From assembly GCA_051047955.1 (NCBI GenBank), contig JBPGPT010000005.1:248001-312000 (forward strand): a stretch of DNA of 64,000 nucleotides, in the 5' to 3' direction. Positions within the stretch are counted from its first letter, which is position 1, and every line of letters starts with the position of its first letter. The notes beneath the pieces are model-generated. The model was given only the letters and a program-made list of their open reading frames with translations, ran no database searches and was not told the origin of the DNA. Source of the DNA: Cystobasidiomycetes sp. EMM_F5 (taxonomy: Eukaryota). The position numbers and the translations under genes are program-made. Below, piece by piece: positions 3,300-18,167 of the stretch.

Positions 3300-4676
3300 T
3301 CAATCGGCTTGCTCAACTTCGTCAACATCGACTGCTAAAGCTGCTGCATCTCTCAACGCTTCTAACGCATGGTAGGCTCGGCCTTCCCTCACACTCCTCC
3401 GCGCTGCATCCATAGCTTCTTTTTCTGAAGCCGCCTTGCCGCTAACGTATATCAGCGCTGCGGCATTCATGCAAACCCACTCTTCGATGTGCGTCAAGCT
3501 GACCGTCACACGATTGGCGTACTCATCAGGTGGCAGCTCGAAAATTTGTGAAAGCTCAGCGGAAGGTGCTGTAGCAGAGGACGTTCTCCGCCGCCTCGGG
3601 GAGAGCATTGCTGAAATAATCTTTGCATGCGTTTGATAATTGGCAGCGACTTCTTCTGGTAGTTGAAGTGAAGCCAGAGGGAATGAGTTTGCACCAAAAG
3701 TATCGGGGTTGATTGTCCGCTCGACAATCTCCCGTTGACCCTCCAATTCCCATACAGTCGTACTGCCCTCTGGAGAAATTGCGTCTAGTCCATTCTCGCC
3801 GTACACTACCCACGCACGTTTGGCACCGAGAACTCTACACCCCTCTGCGAACACCATTCCGAGACTCTTCTCATGCACCCCAATTACCAAGTAGTCTCGC
3901 TTGGTTGGCGAAATGAGCGATGAGACGGAATGGAAGATGGTGGGAAAACCAAGCTCTCGCCTCAGCGGTGCAATTGCGGCGAGTTGTGGAGAGTAGCCAG
4001 GCGTGTAAATGTGCAAGAACGGCACATGTCGCGACGAGGCGACTTGCGTGAGTGAGAATGGAGGTAGCGTTTTGGTGGGGACGGCTAAGCCTGAGAGAAC
4101 ATCGCCCGAGGAGGGCGTGGACGGCCAAGGTGAAGACGCATTGCCCGTCTGGCATATCGTTCAGCATATCATTTCGACGATTTCTTTGGTTGCTGACTTA
4201 CTTTTACGACGCGGCATCCTGCTCCTGCCGCAACGATAGCTGCGGGAAGCGCTACATTCAGCACCTTTTTATGCAAAGTCAGCCAGAGCCTGCATAGTTC
4301 AATGTTGTGCGAGTGTACGCACCGATAGTGCACTGTCTCCGGTCATAGTCCAGTCGCAGATGTTGCCTTCTCCTGCGAGTCTGACATTTCCTGACAAGTC
4401 GCGCATGACTTCGACCAGTACATGGACCATGCCGGGCTTGCACCACACTTCTGTCGCTCGCAAGCTCGCCAAGAAGGAACCGGTTTGGGCCTGTGAGACT
4501 TCGCCGTGGATCAGGTGGAACAGAGCGAGGCGCAAATCTGACGGCGTGAATGAATCCGGACGGCCTAGAAGTTTGGAAATCAACGGCTTGAACGAGTTTA
4601 CGGAATATTGTCCTGAGGGTCCTGCGTCCGCATGGAGTCCATTGGCCTGGATCGGCGGCCTGCTTTCGACCTGCAT
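3300..4676 (-). CDS. Anthranilate phosphoribosyltransferase-like protein with degenerate active-site motifs (TRP4 paralog, ~421 aa, 3 exons)
   Basis: Exons 4676-4323, 4264-4202 and 4148-3300 splice in frame without stops. Colinear with the neighbouring TRP4 (FTPxDL, AAIVAAGAG, APxRRxLGxPTIF, KRAWVVxGxxGLDxISPEG, MNAAAL). Confidence 0.85.
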
Positions 4677-4921
4677 GTTTAGAGTAGAGTACAGTCTCAG
4701 AGTATCAGCAAGACATGCTTAGTCACTTGTACGAAGTAAGAACCAGACAGCTGCAACCACGTCGAGTCCGGCCGAGATTGGGTCACGTGGCTTGAACTGC
4801 GACCAACTTTTTGCTGGACACTGCGACTCTGACAACATTAGACGATACTCTGAACGCTGGACGCTGCGCAAAGACTGCTCCGACAAGCCTCTATCACTCT
4901 CCCCATCTCCCCTTTCCTGCC
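4677..4921. promoter_or_regulatory. Bidirectional promoter shared by the two TRP4-like genes
   Basis: 245 bp between divergent ATGs. Contains TTAGTCA (4719-4725, AP-1/Gcn4-like) and GTCACGTG (4782-4789, bHLH E-box); function of these motifs is not shown. Confidence 0.5.
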
Positions 4922-6239
4922 ATGTCCCCCCGGTCGAGACGCTCATCGGTCTCGTTACCGACCCTGACCTCCGAAACTTTTGAGCCGCTATTAAGCAAGC
5001 TGGCTGCAGAACCCAACGATTTCACTCCAGCCGACCTTGCCGCGTCCTTTGACCATCTCTTTAGTCCAAACTCGTCGACGGAAGCCCAAATTGGCGCGTT
5101 TCTGGCCTTGCTGCGAGGTGTGTTTGCAGATTACAGCGTGACGCGGAGACGACCATCTGATGCGCTTGGTAACCTTCCAGCTTCGGGACTCGAGGGTAAA
5201 CCAGAAATGATGTCAATTGCTGCCCAATCTATGCGGGAGCGTGCTGTCAGGGTAGAGCTTGAAGAAAGTGGTTGGGCAGACCTTGTCGGCACAGGAGGTG
5301 ACGGCAAAGACACCTTCAACGTCAGCACTACAGCCGCTATCGTCGCAGCTGGAGCCGGTGTAAAGGTCTGCAAGGCAAGTCTTTCAACAATCATTTGTCT
5401 TGAAAACGATGCTAATGGCCAAGTGTACAACACAGCATGGCGCACGGGCCTCGTCCTCTGCGTCCGGATCTGCCGACGTTTTACTGGCTCTAGGAGTACC
5501 AATCACCTCGCTGCCTTTGTCTCGCGTGCCCGCGATAGCTGCATCGCTGTCCAAGCCTTTTCTATTTCTCTTTGCTCCGCTATGTCATCCAGCTTTGGCG
5601 CTGGTTGCACCTATACGCCGCCAACTCGGTCATCCGACTATCTTCAACGTTCTAGGTCCCCTTCTGAACCCTGCAAGACCCGAGTACATGATTGTCGGAG
5701 TACATTCTCGATATCTCGGGCCTGCCTTTGCGCAAGCGTTGAGAGCTTTGAAGGTGAAGAGAGCGTGGGTTGTCAACGGAGATGAGGGCCTAGACGAGAT
5801 TAGTCCCGAGGGTACTTCACATGTAAGTATCTCAATGGGAGAGAAATGTACATCTGTCGCTGAATGCAGCGTACAACAGATCTGGGAACTCCGAGATGGA
5901 CAAATCAGCGAGCGGGTCATATCGCCAGCAACCTTTGGTCTACAGTCTCATCCGCTGAGCAATGTTGCAGGAGGCAAGCCAAAGGAGAATGCTGCCTTGA
6001 TCGTTGGTCTTTTGAGCGGTGAAATACCCCATGACCACCCGGTGGAAAACTTTGTCATGATGAATGCAGCAGCACTGCTTGTGGTAGCGGGTAAGGCGGA
6101 TAACGAACAGCATGGAGTAGAGCTTGCTCGTGCGGCAATCAAGTCTGGAGCTGCAAGGGCTGCACTTCAGCAGTACAAGGATCTTGCCGTTGCGGCCGTC
6201 AAGGAGGAGGAAGACGACGATGCACAGAGCGGTCGATAA
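4922..6239 (+). CDS. TRP4: Anthranilate phosphoribosyltransferase
   Basis: Canonical motifs DLVGTGGDGKDTFNVSTTAA, K|HGARASSSASGSAD, TIFNVLGPLLNP and GLDEISP. Introns at ~5118-5180, 5375-5435 (GC-AG) and ~5823-5879. Confidence 0.95.
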
Positions 6240-6743: not shown

Positions 6744-8592
6744 ATGATTGCATCTAGCGCACCTTTCGTAGTCGGGGATTTGAAACGCTCCTTGCGCGAA
6801 AGTGTAGCACAAGCTGTGCACGTCGATACGGGTGATGAGCTCGAAACGACTCTACCAGGCGAGGTGTTTACGAAATGGGGTTGGATTGGTGAATGGGGTG
6901 ACGGTTGCGTCAGACCTAGTCAGTTTGAAAAGGTGAAGAAACCGTCTCATCTTGCAGCCAAGCTGGTCGTCTAACAATCTTGTTGTACAGCTGCGACATG
7001 TTGGAGATCCCCTTTCAGATGCAGTGGTCCGCTTTCTGGATCTGAAGACGGGAGAGGACGGACTGGCACGCTTGCTGAAGTACGTTGAGGAGAATCCGGA
7101 GGATGAGTGGGACCACGAGGTTGCCCTTTTTTGGAGGTCCATCAGAGATGTTCCGCCAGTGAATATACACGCGTTAGATCAGACGAGCTCATATAACGAG
7201 GTCAAGGAGAGCTGGAACATTGATTTAATTAAGCTCATAGAGGACGAAGACCGCCAGTCGCAGGCGGAAACGGTAGCCAAACCGAAAGAGACCTCCGCGA
7301 ATCCAGCAACTACCGGCGTATTCACACCCACTGAAGCTATACAGAGTAGGAATCGACGGCCTCCACCGACGCTCTCCGAAGGTCAGGCTGTCTTCTGGAG
7401 ATATAGTGCAGACATGTTTGATGCCCTTGGTCATTTTTCACTGGCGGGAGGTGAGACTAGACGTTCAGGTTCTGTCGTACATATACCCATGCTGACGGTC
7501 TTGTCAGGATTCGCTTCTGCGAGGGTGATGCCAGTATTATACGAAACCGGCTACCTTACCAGTCCGTCTAGGGACGCCATCTATCGTCGCCTAAACGAGA
7601 CGGGTCAGGCGCTCATTGACTTTATGAGCGATATGACTCCCATCACCGGAAGTGGTTGGAAGAGCTGCATCAGGGTGCGGATGCTGCACTCTCAGGTCCG
7701 CATACGAATCTTGGCACAGAAGACACGGCTCAAGAAATACGATGTCGAGCGGGATGGTATTCCCATCAATCAAGAAGACATGGCTGCCACATTGTGTGGA
7801 TTTGGATTAGCTCCCCTTTGGTGCGAGCGCCGCTTGGGAATTCATCTATCTCCCGAAGAAGAATTGGCTTTCATTTCGTGCTGGCGGCATATTGGCTACT
7901 ACTTGGGAATACATCCAGTCTTGCTGCGTAACTTTTTTACCGTCGCTCCGCCAGGACACGGCAGGGTCAGCACAACGCGACCGCATCGATTTTTCGCTTC
8001 TGTTGCCTTTCATTTATTTGCTGGTACCCAGAAGCCTAAAGATCCTTTTGCGACTAGCACATCAAAGATTTTGCACGCCATTGCACATCGACCGCCGACC
8101 GGCAAATCTGCTGGATTCCATTGCGAATTGTCAAGGATGCTTCTCGGGTACGGGTTGGCCGACCAGCTTGGCGTACCATGTGGTACTCTTCGAGACCGCC
8201 TCAAAGTACAGCAACATGCGTGGACCAGCTGGCTACAAACTACTTTCGGTAGATATTACAGGCCACAGTGGGAAATCTCAAAGCAACTCCTGCTGAAGCG
8301 TATGATTACGTTGGTCGTAACGTGGCAGTTGGGAGAGAAGCGGTCTACGTATACGTGGCGAGATCATCAGCATCATGAGAGCAAGATTTCCGACATGATG
8401 AAGGACCATGCCGAAGCTGGAGAAGACAGCGGACTCGAATTCGGTATGCATATTGCTAAAGAAGTCAAGTGGCAAGCACAGCGCACCTTTATCGAGATGG
8501 GCTGTGTGATTGCCCTTGGTGCTATCTTGTCAGTCGTCGCTGCGACCAAAGCTGCGGGGACTGCTGCGCATCTGTACCAGAATCTTAGATGA
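6744..8592 (+). CDS. ER-bound oxygenase MpaB / latex-clearing-protein-like (DUF2236) heme protein with C-terminal membrane anchor
   Basis: Motifs GDPLSD, RRLNETGQ, IRVRMLHSQVR, GIPINQED and WRHIGYYLGI; hydrophobic C-terminus. Introns at ~6933-6990 and ~7451-7508. Confidence 0.8.
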
Positions 8593-16398: not shown

Positions 16399-18167
16399 AT
16401 GAATCTGGATGAGGAATCGCAGGAGAGTGTCCGGAAGTTACTGCAGTCAAGGAATCATGACAACCTGCGCGATGCTCGCGTAAATGCGTCGCGGCAAGCT
16501 CTAGATTCAGCAAGAGAAAGTTTGCCAATCAGCCTACCATCCGACGGCGTTGGCTCGAAGAGTGCGTCGAGGACCGCGATTGGCAGAACAGCCTACTGAC
16601 GGGCAGGCATGCTACGTGACCAGCCGCCATCGATATCCTTGTCAAGTCCGTGGCTGGAACCAGACCGCTGACATAGGAGCTGACTTGACCCGATGTTAAA
16701 TTCAACAGTACCATCAGCCCCGCATTGGCAGCAGGACAAGCTGGCCCGAGATATTATGGCTTCGTTACTGGAGGGCATACTCCGGTCTCCCTAGCAGCAG
16801 ACTTTGTCGCTTCTAGCTATGATGCCAACGTACAGGTGCATCTTCCAGTAAGTTTGCATATGCTATAATCAGATTCTTGCCCTCGTTGTCTGATTCATGA
16901 CACAGCAAGACACGATTGCAACATATGTCGAAGCCCTGGCCCTTCGATACGTCCTGGATCTCTTGTCGATTCCGCATACATGTTTCTCCGGACGCAGTGT
17001 AACAACAGGCGCCACCGCTTCAAATGTGATGGGTATCGCTTGCGGTCGTCAAGCGGTAGCATCTCGACTGAAAGGTCCAAAGTACTCTGCAGCAGAAGAC
17101 GGTCTGGCTGGACTTGAAATTGACGTACTGTGTGCGGGGGCGCATATAAGCATACGCAAGGCAGCCGCGATTGTCGGCATCGGACGCAGTCGCTGTATCG
17201 AAATGCTCGCGTACGACGAAGATAGTGTGGTGGCATTCGACTTGGAACGCTTGGAACGACACTTACTAGACGCTCAGCAGCAAGGCCGCGGCTGTATTGT
17301 CTGTCCTGCCTACGCAGAAGTGAATACAGGAGCATTCACACCCGACATGCCTCTCATCCGCAAGCTATGTGACAAATACGGCGCCTGGCTGCATCTAGAT
17401 GCCGGTGGGGGTGTGCGAGGAACCTTCGTTGCATTCGAACTGACTCTGTCTATGCCTCATCAGCTTTCGGCGGATTTGGCGGCCTTCATCCTGACTTTCG
17501 CGAGGAGGTCCTAGCTGGGTTACGGCTGGCAGACAGCCTAACTCTAGATGGGCATAAATGGCTCAACGTGCCGTACGACTGCGCCATGTTTTACACGCGA
17601 GACGCAAAATTGCTTGAAGCTGTTTTTGGTCCAGGCGCAAATGCTCCGGCATACTTGTCTGGTGCCAGTGACCCTGGAGACCCAGAGTATATCCCTTCGC
17701 CGCTGAATGTTGGGATCGAAAACAGCCGTCGTTTCAGATCACTCCCTTTGTATACATCTCTGCTGGCATACGGAAAAGAAGGGCACCGCGATATTGTGTT
17801 GCGCAATATCGGGTTTGCGCGAAAGGTGGAAGCATGGCTTGTCGATAATACCCAATGGTACGATGTCCTCACGCCGCCATCCACCACCTCTTCAAAGCAA
17901 GGCAACTTCAAAATACTCAACATTGTACTCTTCGCCCCGAGTCGGGCATGCGGTGTCGAAGCATTTGCCAAAGAGGACGGTGCTGTCCAGCTAGTGAAGG
18001 TCATTAACGCATCCGGCAGAATGTACGTTACAGGGACGAAATGGAAAGGTAGAAGTGCAATCCGCTTAGCAGTATCGAACTGGTTGACGACTGTTGAGGA
18101 TGATTTGAGCATGGTCACCGAGACGCTTACCGCAGTTATGACCCATGGTAAAATCTCATCAGTATAG
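16399..18167 (+). CDS. Group II pyridoxal-phosphate-dependent decarboxylase (aromatic-L-amino-acid/glutamate decarboxylase-like); substrate unknown
   Basis: Motifs [56 protein letters not shown] (PLP lysine), ENSRRFR and AIRLAVSNW. Confidence 0.9.

What the first reader, a model, noticed from the sequence alone, without database searches (positions are those of the whole stretch)
3300..6239. Intact pseudo-enzyme TRP4 paralog head-to-head with the active TRP4
Seen: two colinear TrpD-fold genes diverge from a 245 bp spacer and share the intron after V-x-K. The minus copy has an unbroken 421 aa frame, but every substrate motif is altered: GTGGDG to TMTGDS, FNVST to LNVAL, KHG to KTG, GSAD to SSGD, FNVLGPLLNP to FHSVSSLISP, DE to DA. 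Known: these motifs bind PRPP, Mg2+ and anthranilate; TrpD dimerises via its N-terminal helical domain, which is retained here; non-catalytic TrpD-like proteins (YbiB/TrpD2) occur in prokaryotes. Inference: a co-regulated enzyme/pseudo-enzyme pair, in which the dead copy could be a heterodimeric regulator, metabolite sensor or nucleic-acid binder. I know of no description of this in fungi.
Basis: partly seen in the sequence, partly recalled or inferred. Interest (0 to 1): 0.75.

Follow-up and report, generated by a model that had tools for sequence, protein, structure and literature searches.

The report
Degenerate, conserved TRP4 paralog beside TRP4
A basidiomycete yeast carries, head-to-head with its normal tryptophan-pathway gene TRP4, a conserved sister gene that keeps the enzyme's fold but has rebuilt the loops that hold one substrate, so it probably has a new and still unknown job.

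Summary
A canonical TRP4 (4922-6239, +, 378 aa) and a TrpD-fold paralog (4676-3300, -, 421 aa) diverge from a 245 bp spacer. They share an intron position after the catalytic Lys codon. The spliced paralog is identical to an independently predicted NCBI protein.

The paralog is not a decaying copy. Twenty protein clusters at 51-76% identity carry the same altered motifs. Of 35 TRP4-conserved sites that are changed, 22 are near-invariant within the family. The family forms a 100/100 clade on a long stem inside basidiomycete TRP4 and is rare: 3 representatives among 1.84 billion.

The PRPP/Mg ligands are lost: the GTGGD loop and the equivalents of Ser119, Thr120 and Glu252. The anthranilate-carboxylate Arg and Asn, the Lys and the Asp are kept. 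It fails the trpD equivalog cut-off (166 against 199 bits; TRP4 scores 312). Its fold is AnPRT (Z 39.9), not YbiB (Z 24.3). A TRP4-paralog heterodimer through the canonical interface is predicted (0.77 against 0.00), but this may only reflect likeness to solved homodimers.

No RNA data and no ortholog DNA were available, so expression, dN/dS and function remain open.

The parts
4323..4676 (-). Paralog exon 1 (118 aa): N-terminal four-helix bundle, strand b1, and the rebuilt b1-a5 loop that replaces GTGGD
   Evidence: ATG at 4676 and a GTGCGT donor at 4322. PF02885 scores 26.8 bits for the exon alone. Identical to residues 1-118 of P0301. All 5 available N-terminal sequences carry the same rebuilt loop.
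4265..4322 (-). Paralog intron 1 (58 nt, GT-AG). TRP4 has no intron here.
   Evidence: CTGAC branch-point-like motif before the AG. Read-through residues at the same place in P0004 and P0303 indicate that the position is conserved.
4202..4264 (-). Paralog exon 2 (21 aa): start of a5 (Ser119/Thr120 equivalents now Ala/Leu) and strand b2, ending at the retained Lys
4149..4201 (-). Paralog intron 2 (53 nt, GTAAGT..CAG), phase 0 after the V-V-K Lys codon. Same position as TRP4 intron 2.
3300..4148 (-). Paralog exon 3 (282 aa plus stop 3302-3300): rest of the a/b domain, with the rebuilt b2-a6 loop (2-residue insert), Asp-Ala in place of the Asp-Glu Mg site, two family-specific inserts and a near-invariant C-terminal helix
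   Evidence: PF00591 at 8.8e-25. Homologues. Alignments. AF2 model of P0301 has pLDDT 89.9.
4677..4921 (.). 245 bp divergent intergenic spacer between the two start codons (presumed shared promoter)
   Evidence: Coordinates. GC 0.52. Promoter function is inferred, not tested.
4922..5117 (+). TRP4 exon 1
   Evidence: The N-terminus is identical to P0041.
5118..5180 (+). TRP4 intron 1 (63 nt, GT-AG, in frame)
   Evidence: Its removal restores the family's spacing and matches P0041.
5181..5374 (+). TRP4 exon 2, carrying the canonical GTGGDG and FNVST motifs and ending at V-C-K
5375..5435 (+). TRP4 intron 2 (61 nt, GC-AG donor GCAAGT), phase 0 after the Lys codon. An alternative GT donor lies at 5366.
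   Evidence: The NCBI model P0041 uses the upstream donor and lacks 3 residues that the other fungal TRP4 rows shown in the alignments keep in length.
5436..5822 (+). TRP4 exon 3 (KHG, GSAD, FN..GPL.NP and GLDEIS motifs)
5823..5879 (+). TRP4 intron 3 (57 nt, GTAAGT..CAG). Absent from the paralog.
5880..6239 (+). TRP4 exon 4 plus stop
   Evidence: As P0041, the protein scores 312.4 bits on TIGR01245 against a cut-off of 199.

Best explanation
The minus-strand gene is an intact, selectively maintained member of a small family found so far only in Cystobasidiomycete-type yeasts.

How it arose. It came from a DNA-level duplication of the fungal TRP4 gene (shared intron position, head-to-head neighbour). 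A burst of change on the stem branch then rebuilt the active-site loops.

What it has lost (inferred). It can no longer bind Mg-PRPP, so it is not an anthranilate phosphoribosyltransferase.

What it keeps. It keeps the two-domain AnPRT fold and the a1/a3/a8 dimer surface. It keeps the Lys, the Asp, and the Arg and Asn that clamp anthranilate's carboxylate. The rebuilt loops, which include three new family-conserved His, are themselves near-invariant across the family.

Most likely mechanism (inferred). It is a dimeric protein whose re-purposed cleft still binds a small ligand, plausibly an anthranilate-like aromatic carboxylate. It either senses or sequesters that ligand or carries out a different, PRPP-independent reaction on it. 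It is probably expressed together with TRP4 from the shared 245 bp spacer.

Still open. Whether it pairs with itself or with TRP4.

My odds:
- conserved non-AnPRT paralog under purifying selection: about 0.85
- functional rebuilt ligand pocket: about 0.5
- physical heterodimer with TRP4: about 0.3
For: Gene model. The 421 aa product equals the independently predicted protein P0301.

Fold. PF00591 scores 118.7 bits. AF2 gives pLDDT 89.9 for the window protein and 92.5 for relative P0005. The best solved matches are AnPRTs: Z 39.9 (rmsd 2.0, 328 aligned) and 39.0 for yeast Trp4, and Foldseek E 6e-24.

Conservation.
- One search returned 39 hits. Twenty clusters (P0002-P0019, P0021, P0023) at 51-76% identity carry the paralog motifs.
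- Mean pairwise identity within the family is 64% over 178 pairs.
- In a substitution-only neutral simulation of exon 3, only 5 of 1000 replicates at 37% divergence and 2 of 1000 at 44% stayed stop-free.
- At least 6 relatives span 94% or more of that exon.

Rebuilt but constrained pocket. There are 109 sites that are at least 85% conserved in 29 fungal TRP4s. The paralog consensus keeps 74 of them and changes 35. Of those 35, 22 are at least 85% conserved inside the family, and they cluster in the b1-a5 loop, the b2-a6 loop and other cleft loops.

Loss of PRPP/Mg ligands (residue roles from the review).
- The GTGGD loop is replaced in 5 of 5 N-terminal sequences.
- The Ser119 and Thr120 equivalents are Ala and Leu in 4 of 4.
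- The Glu252 equivalent is Ala in 18 of 20, Gly in 2 of 20 and Glu in 0 of 20.

Retained residues. The Arg193 equivalent is kept in 11 of 13, Asn138 in 7 of 8 and Asp251 in 20 of 20. Lys135 is also kept.

Family cut-off. On the trpD equivalog TIGR01245 the window paralog scores 166.2 bits and P0005 scores 185. Both are under the 199.05 cut-off. TRP4 scores 312.4.

Origin.
- The paralog clade has 100/100 support and a stem of 1.16 substitutions per site.
- It sits inside a basidiomycete TRP4 group with 90/87 support.
- Root-to-tip distance within the clade averages 0.48.
- Placing it as sister to the Cystobasidiomycete TRP4s is not rejected (AU p 0.455).

Rarity. Only 3 of 1.84 billion cluster representatives score as paralog-like (388-470 bits). 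The next hit is the window's own TRP4 at 202 bits.

Linkage.
- The identical pair has consecutive NCBI accessions on one contig.

Dimer. The predicted TRP4+paralog complex scores ipSAE 0.77, 0.77 and 0.76, against 0.00 for the best of 3 controls. That mark was reached by 51 of 78 solved complexes and 2 of 108 mismatched pairs. The runs agree in 100% of contacts and the partner's pLDDT is 85. The interface is a1, a3 and a8.
Against: - No expression evidence exists. The NCBI model was ab initio, without RNA.
- No ortholog DNA was obtained, so dN/dS was not computed.
- The protein databases hold only open frames, so broken copies would be under-sampled.
- The critical N-terminal loops rest on only 5 sequences.
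- Loss of motifs does not prove inactivity. Yeast trp4-S121A, expected to be dead from its structure, still complements trp4-delta.
- Ligand binding by the rebuilt cleft is inferred from the conservation pattern only. No coordinates were available to check that the new His and Cys residues cluster.
- The complex prediction used proteins from two different organisms. It belongs to a family with solved homodimers, so it may pass from memory. It cannot tell hetero- from homodimer.
- Interface columns are only slightly more alike between paralog and TRP4 (14 of 28) than the rest of the N-domain (21 of 59).
- Linkage in the two unnamed contigs is inferred from equal contig lengths. Orientation there is unknown.
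Confidence: 0.6

Rival explanations
1. Prozyme-type regulator. The paralog is purely non-catalytic and acts by forming a heterodimer with TRP4, changing TRP4's stability, activity or localisation. The two genes are co-expressed from the shared promoter.
For: - Head-to-head arrangement with a 245 bp spacer. Linkage is probably kept in 2 further contigs.
- The dimer helices are retained. The predicted heterodimer scores ipSAE 0.77 against 0.00 for the best of 3 controls, a mark reached by 51 of 78 solved complexes and 2 of 108 mismatched pairs, with 100% contact agreement and partner pLDDT 85.
- The tryptophan pathway has a precedent: a TSB-like pseudoenzyme activates TSA in eudicots (abstract only).
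Against: - AnPRT active sites are remote from the dimer interface, and dimerisation affects stability rather than catalysis (review passage). There is therefore no evident allosteric route.
- A mere scaffold would not need near-invariant rebuilt active-site loops.
- The prediction may reflect likeness to solved homodimers, and it used a cross-organism pair.
- Interface identity of 14 of 28 is not clearly above background at 21 of 59.
Confidence: 0.25
2. It is still an anthranilate phosphoribosyltransferase, or a phosphoribosyltransferase for another acceptor, with an unusual PRPP site. In that case the GenBank name is right.
For: - Lys135, Asn117, Asn138, Arg193 and Asp251 equivalents are kept.
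- Yeast trp4-S121A still works in vivo.
- Two public records name members of the family as AnPRT.
Against: - The GTGGD loop is replaced in 5 of 5 sequences. The Ser119 and Thr120 equivalents are replaced in 4 of 4. The Glu252 equivalent is never Glu in 20 of 20.
- The b2-a6 loop has a 2-residue Pro-Trp insert.
- It scores below the TIGR01245 cut-off.
- A canonical TRP4 sits next door, so there is no need for a second one.
- The public names are automatic.
Confidence: 0.06
3. A nucleic-acid-binding protein analogous to bacterial TrpD2/YbiB.
For: Like TrpD2, it has the AnPRT fold without the PRPP motif (review). It has a conserved basic insert (Ser-Pro-Arg-Arg). YbiB is a structural match at Z 24.3.
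Against: - pI is 5.91 with net negative charge (36 K+R against 43 D+E).
- It nests inside fungal TRP4 and is 40% identical to it, whereas TrpD2 is under 20% identical.
- AnPRTs match far better, at Z 39.9.
Confidence: 0.05
4. A recently dead or decaying duplicate with no function.
For: Catalytic motifs are lost and no RNA evidence exists (one search lists no RNA holder).
Against: - Twenty diverged clusters keep the frame and share new near-invariant motifs.
- Neutral simulation leaves 2-5 of 1000 frames open at the observed divergence.
- Branches within the clade are short relative to the stem.
- Codon-position GC is coding-like, and the introns have clean signals.
Confidence: 0.03

Closest known systems
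Anthranilate phosphoribosyltransferase (TrpD / fungal Trp4, EC 2.4.2.18)
   Same: - Direct evolutionary parent.
- Same two-domain fold (Z 39.9 and 39.0) and same Pfam domains.
- 40% identity to the neighbouring TRP4.
- Shared intron position.
- The dimer helices and the anthranilate-carboxylate Arg and Asn are retained.
   Different: - The GTGGD loop and the Ser/Thr/Glu ligands for Mg and pyrophosphate are replaced family-wide.
- There is a 2-residue insert in the b2-a6 loop and two further inserts.
- It scores below the trpD equivalog cut-off.
- It forms a separate 100/100 clade on a 1.16 stem.
TrpD2 / YbiB (prokaryotic DNA-binding AnPRT homologues)
   Same: AnPRT fold without the PRPP-binding motif (review passage). 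This makes it a functional analogue of 'AnPRT fold recruited for something else'.
   Different: - TrpD2 is prokaryotic and under 20% identical to AnPRT.
- This family is fungal, derives from TRP4 and is 40% identical to it.
- Its pI is acidic.
- YbiB scores only Z 24.3 at 15% identity.
- The loss of the motif is independent and convergent.
Pseudoenzyme paralogs that partner the active enzyme, for example plant TSB-like, which activates tryptophan synthase alpha
   Same: A paralog of a tryptophan-pathway enzyme that has lost key catalytic residues yet is conserved (abstract of PMC12727527).
   Different: In the plant case two residues changed and the partner interaction was shown experimentally. 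Here whole loops are rebuilt and conserved, binding to TRP4 is only predicted, and AnPRT's dimer interface is far from the active sites.
Nucleoside phosphorylase family II (thymidine and AMP phosphorylases)
   Same: Same superfold (Z 25.4 and 21.3).
   Different: About 14% identity. The extra C-terminal a/b domain of NP-II (described) is missing. There is no phylogenetic link.

Membership tests
Anthranilate phosphoribosyltransferase (TrpD/Trp4) | Two-domain AnPRT fold: N-terminal helical bundle plus a/b domain (PF02885 + PF00591) | tested here: met
   PF00591 scores 118.7 bits. PF02885 scores 24.0 bits for the whole protein (cut-off 26) and 26.8 for exon 1 alone. The AF2 model has pLDDT 89.9. 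Z is 39.9 and 39.0 to solved AnPRTs.
Anthranilate phosphoribosyltransferase (TrpD/Trp4) | Conserved GTGGD loop (b1-a5) that binds the 5'-phosphate of PRPP | tested here: not met
   Replaced by a different, family-conserved loop in 5 of 5 N-terminal sequences. It is invariant in 28 of 28 fungal TRP4 rows. Its role is taken from the review.
Anthranilate phosphoribosyltransferase (TrpD/Trp4) | Mg/pyrophosphate ligands: Ser119, Thr120 and Glu252 (M. tuberculosis numbering) | tested here: not met
   Ala and Leu in 4 of 4. The Glu position is Ala in 18 of 20, Gly in 2 of 20 and Glu in 0 of 20. Mapping to M. tuberculosis numbers is my motif arithmetic. The Asp251 equivalent is kept in 20 of 20.
Anthranilate phosphoribosyltransferase (TrpD/Trp4) | Anthranilate site 1: Arg193 and Asn138 equivalents | tested here: met
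   Arg in 11 of 13 (one Lys, and one row affected by a gene-call start artefact). Asn in 7 of 8.
Anthranilate phosphoribosyltransferase (TrpD/Trp4) | Score above the curated trpD equivalog cut-off (TIGR01245, 199.05 bits) | tested here: not met
   The window paralog scores 166.2 and P0005 scores 185.0. The neighbouring TRP4 (as P0041) scores 312.4.
Anthranilate phosphoribosyltransferase (TrpD/Trp4) | Catalyses anthranilate + PRPP to PRA, and complements trp4/trpD mutants | not testable with these tools
   Needs an enzyme assay or a complementation test.
TrpD2 / YbiB | Separate prokaryotic lineage, under 20% identical to AnPRT | tested here: not met
   40% identity to TRP4 over 370 columns. Nested inside basidiomycete TRP4. 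The definition is from the review.
TrpD2 / YbiB | Lacks the PRPP-binding motif | tested here: met
TrpD2 / YbiB | Binds nucleic acid | tested here: inconclusive
   Only pI was computed: 5.91 for the window protein and 7.75 for P0005. No surface map or assay was made.
Pseudoenzyme partner of its active paralog (prozyme type) | Catalytic residues lost while the protein stays conserved | tested here: met
Pseudoenzyme partner of its active paralog (prozyme type) | Forms a specific complex with the active paralog | tested here: inconclusive
   The predicted complex scores ipSAE 0.77 against 0.00 for the best of 3 controls, a mark reached by 51 of 78 solved complexes and 2 of 108 mismatched pairs. 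It may pass by likeness to solved homodimers, it used a cross-organism pair, and the homodimer was not run.
Pseudoenzyme partner of its active paralog (prozyme type) | Changes the activity of the partner | not testable with these tools
   Needs enzymology.

The most novel reading that the evidence does not exclude
A second, independent recruitment of the AnPRT fold in fungi, convergent with bacterial TrpD2. A TRP4-derived protein has swapped its Mg-PRPP site for a new, conserved His-rich pocket while keeping the anthranilate clamp and the dimer surface. It works as an anthranilate-sensing or anthranilate-modifying subunit that pairs with TRP4. This would be a prozyme-like enzyme/pseudoenzyme heterodimer controlling entry into the tryptophan branch in Cystobasidiomycete yeasts.
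Probability: 0.2. Interest if true: 0.75.

Novelty: new variant of a known kind. Interest (0 to 1): 0.5.

Why it matters
AnPRT is a textbook, usually single-copy enzyme and a drug target. According to the review passages read here, the only characterised non-catalytic relatives are bacterial TrpD2 proteins. That review also lists nucleoside phosphorylases and an uncharacterised plant group as homologues.

A eukaryotic family that derives directly from TRP4 would show how this fold is re-purposed. The family has rebuilt the PRPP site, keeps the anthranilate clamp, and stays physically linked to TRP4.

It may also reveal an unknown layer of control, or a side reaction, at the anthranilate branch point in a poorly studied class of phyllosphere and lichen-associated yeasts.

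In practice, public records currently name these proteins 'anthranilate phosphoribosyltransferase'. That name is probably wrong and would inflate pathway copy counts.

Tried and rejected
- Whole-genome search of the window's own assembly: no genome is held, so I could not check for further TrpD copies.
They were not inspected further and were not paralog orthologs. dN/dS was not computed.
- Expression: no RNA holder was listed. One DNA run held 0.07 of the words. Laying it gave two 151-nt contigs on TRP4 exon 4 only (5855-6128) and nothing on the paralog. This says nothing about expression.
- N-terminal relatives: the third homologue search, with exon 1, found only the window's own piece and one other sequence, P0303.
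- Long single-stretch hits in the representative search (P0160-P0179): the 9 inspected all had canonical TRP4-type motifs, 6 of them also with long inserts. They are not further paralog members.
- Interface-conservation test: 14 of 28 against 21 of 59 identical. This is too weak to support hetero-pairing.
- Earlier findings of this scan: three look-ups returned nothing.
- Bacterial or horizontal origin, or YbiB ancestry: rejected by the tree. Fungal TRP4 plus the paralog separates from bacterial rows at 99/98.
- Secondary-metabolite cluster reading: the neighbours within about 15 kb gave only an mpaB-like oxygenase domain and a PLP-decarboxylase domain, and 6 of 9 ORFs had no Pfam hit. There was no cluster signature, and I did not pursue it.
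Full report
**Observation**

- TRP4 is on the plus strand. It starts at 4922 and has four exons: 4922-5117, 5181-5374, 5436-5822 and 5880-6239 with the stop. The product is 378 aa.
- The paralog is on the minus strand. It starts at 4676 and has three exons: 4676-4323, 4264-4202 and 4148-3300 with the stop. The product is 421 aa, and both introns are GT-AG.
- The start codons are 245 bp apart.

The spliced paralog is identical over all 421 residues to P0301, an NCBI protein of Cystobasidiomycetes sp. EMM_F5. Its accession number directly precedes that of the TRP4 protein P0041 on the same contig. That annotation was made ab initio, without RNA (main text of PMC12697161). It therefore confirms the gene model independently but says nothing about expression.

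Both genes are interrupted in phase 0 directly after the Lys codon of V-x-K. In TRP4 this requires a GC donor (GCAAGT, 5375). The public model instead uses a GT donor 9 nt upstream and lacks three residues that the other fungal TRP4 rows shown in the alignments keep in length. The remaining introns are not shared between the two genes.

**Identity of the two proteins**

Both carry PF02885 and PF00591.

On NCBI's trpD equivalog model, with a cut-off of 199.05 bits, TRP4 scores 312.4. The window paralog scores 166.2 and its relative P0005 scores 185.0.

AlphaFold2 models are confident: pLDDT 89.9 for the window protein and 92.5 for P0005.

A full structural search ranks AnPRTs first: 1kgz Z 39.9, rmsd 2.0, 328 aligned; yeast 7dsm Z 39.0. 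The next matches are well below: AMP phosphorylase Z 25.4, YbiB/TrpD2 Z 24.3 and thymidine phosphorylase Z 21.3 (Foldseek agrees).

**It is a conserved family, not a wreck**

A search with exon 3 returned 39 hits.

- Twenty clusters (P0002-P0019, P0021, P0023; 51-76% identity) carry the same altered motifs when aligned. P0018 repeats part of P0005.
- P0020, P0022 and P0024 are canonical TRP4s of other basidiomycetes.
- The other 15 hits are distant. The two I read had canonical motifs.

Most family members are C-terminal fragments produced by prokaryote-style gene calling across introns. Only one besides the window's twin has a name: a Cyphobasidiales metagenome-assembled genome, where it is annotated as AnPRT.

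A profile search of 1.84 billion cluster representatives found just three paralog-type representatives (388-470 bits). The score then drops to 202 bits for the window's own TRP4. The nine long or single-stretch hits I inspected were canonical TRP4-type proteins, six of them with long inserts.

Mean pairwise identity within the family is 64% (range 45-91%; 178 pairs).

In a substitution-only neutral simulation of exon 3, only 5 of 1000 replicates at 37% amino-acid divergence and 2 of 1000 at 44% stayed free of stops. At least six relatives span 94% or more of that exon. The caveat is that protein databases contain only open frames.

**What changed and what did not**

I took residue roles from the AnPRT review PMC9835598 (passages and sections 4-5 of the paper). 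I mapped them onto the window proteins by motif position, which is my own inference.

Lost:
- The GTGGD loop, which binds the 5'-phosphate, in 5 of 5 N-terminal sequences.
- The Ser119 and Thr120 equivalents (Mg1 and pyrophosphate), now Ala and Leu in 4 of 4.
- The Glu252 equivalent (both Mg ions): Ala in 18 of 20, Gly in 2 of 20, never Glu.
- The b2-a6 loop gains two residues.

Kept:
- The Asn117 and Lys135 equivalents.
- Asn138 in 7 of 8.
- Arg193 in 11 of 13.
- Asp251 in 20 of 20.

Arg193 and Asn138 are the residues that hold anthranilate's carboxylate.

Across 109 sites that are at least 85% conserved in 29 fungal TRP4s, the paralog consensus keeps 74 and changes 35. Of those 35, 22 are themselves at least 85% conserved within the family, and they lie in the cleft loops. 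They include three new His: Phe to His in 8 of 8, Asn to His in 13 of 13, and Asn to His in 18 of 19.

This pattern, where sites are conserved but different, is what a re-purposed pocket looks like. It is not what an abandoned one looks like.

One caution: yeast trp4-S121A, predicted dead from its crystal structure, still supports growth (main text of PMC12750150). Motif loss alone therefore does not prove inactivity. Here, however, several ligands and a whole loop are gone.

**Origin**

In a 47-row maximum-likelihood tree, fungal sequences separate from bacterial ones at 99/98 support. The paralogs form a 100/100 clade on a stem of 1.16 substitutions per site. That clade sits in a basidiomycete group (90/87) together with the Cystobasidiomycete, Microbotryomycete and Ustilaginomycotina TRP4 clades. 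The order among these is unresolved.

Forcing the paralogs to be sister to the four Cystobasidiomycete TRP4s costs 0.20 log-likelihood units (AU p 0.455). A lineage-specific duplication is therefore compatible with the data but not proven.

Within the clade, root-to-tip distance averages 0.48, against 0.39 for the Cystobasidiomycete TRP4 clade. For one presumed same-genome pair, the paralog path is 0.92 against 0.56 for TRP4, corresponding to 56% against 71% identity. So a burst of change was followed by constrained, somewhat faster evolution.

**Linkage**

Besides the window and its named twin, two paralog/TRP4-type pairs share a contig length within one source. P0011 and P0042 are both on a 20597 bp contig, and P0015 and P0060 are both on a 9911 bp contig. 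This suggests, but does not prove, that the genes are linked in other lineages. Orientation there is unknown.

**Dimerisation**

AnPRTs dimerise through a1, a3 and a8. The active sites are remote from that interface, and dimerisation matters for stability rather than catalysis.

A predicted complex of TRP4 (P0041) with paralog P0005 scored ipSAE 0.77, 0.77 and 0.76. The best of 3 controls scored 0.00. That mark was reached by 51 of 78 solved complexes and 2 of 108 mismatched pairs. Contacts agreed 100% between runs and the partner's pLDDT was 85. The contacts lie on exactly those three helices.

This shows that the canonical surface is retained. It may pass by memory of solved homodimers. It used proteins from two organisms, and it cannot distinguish hetero- from homodimers. 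Interface columns are 14 of 28 identical between the window's two proteins, against 21 of 59 in the rest of the N-domain. That is not a convincing excess.

**Interpretation**

I am confident (about 0.85) that this is a conserved, TRP4-derived protein that is no longer an AnPRT.

I think it most likely (about 0.5) that the rebuilt cleft is functional. It would bind an anthranilate-like carboxylate without Mg-PRPP, either as a sensor or buffer or for a different reaction.

A heterodimeric regulator of TRP4 remains possible (about 0.25-0.3) but lacks an obvious allosteric route.

The remaining readings are unlikely:
- Residual AnPRT activity, about 0.06.
- A YbiB-like nucleic-acid binder, about 0.05. 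The pI is 5.91.
- A dead gene, about 0.03.

**Novelty**

Five full-text searches found no description of a fungal TrpD/TRP4 paralog or pseudoenzyme. The TrpD2 papers were seen as a listing only. The plant TSB-like pseudoenzyme paper was read as an abstract only.

The sequences are already public but are named AnPRT automatically. I rate this a new variant of a known kind: a pseudoenzyme or neofunctionalised paralog of a core enzyme.

**What is missing**

Not available here: RNA evidence, ortholog DNA and therefore dN/dS and synteny, the rest of the genome, and model coordinates to test whether the new His and Cys residues cluster.

Noticed in passing
window 5363-5435: TRP4 intron 2 most likely uses a GC donor (GCAAGT at 5375). 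The public model of the identical protein (P0041, 375 aa) uses a GT donor at 5366 and so lacks three residues (V-C-K) that the other fungal TRP4 rows shown in the alignments keep in length.
   Followed up: partly
window 6937-8592 (+): A long ORF immediately downstream of TRP4 has an mpaB/rubber-oxygenase catalytic domain (PF09995, E 2.9e-11). No link to the TRP4 pair was examined.
   Followed up: no
window 16894-18167 (+): A pyridoxal-dependent decarboxylase (PF00282) is split over two overlapping frames, presumably by an intron. It lies about 10.6 kb from TRP4. I did not test whether it is an aromatic amino-acid decarboxylase.
   Followed up: no
window 4719-4725 and 4782-4789: The 245 bp spacer contains TTAGTCA and GTCACGTG (read). 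From memory these resemble AP-1/Gcn4-like and Cbf1/Pho4-type E-box sites. No perfect TGACTC element was seen by eye. This was not tested statistically or by comparison with other genomes.
   Followed up: no
P0161, P0162, P0166, P0167, P0170, P0179: These otherwise canonical TRP4-type proteins carry long inserts, by eye in the same region (before the conserved helix near the C-terminus) where the paralog family has its own insert. If so, that loop tolerates insertions repeatedly.
   Followed up: partly
window 5436-5450 (TRP4 exon 3 start): The window's TRP4 and its relative P0042 have Ala at the position of M. tuberculosis Asn138 (K-H-G-A), whereas the paralog family keeps Asn there. Yeast Trp4 has Gly at this position according to the review, so this is probably tolerated.
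   Followed up: no
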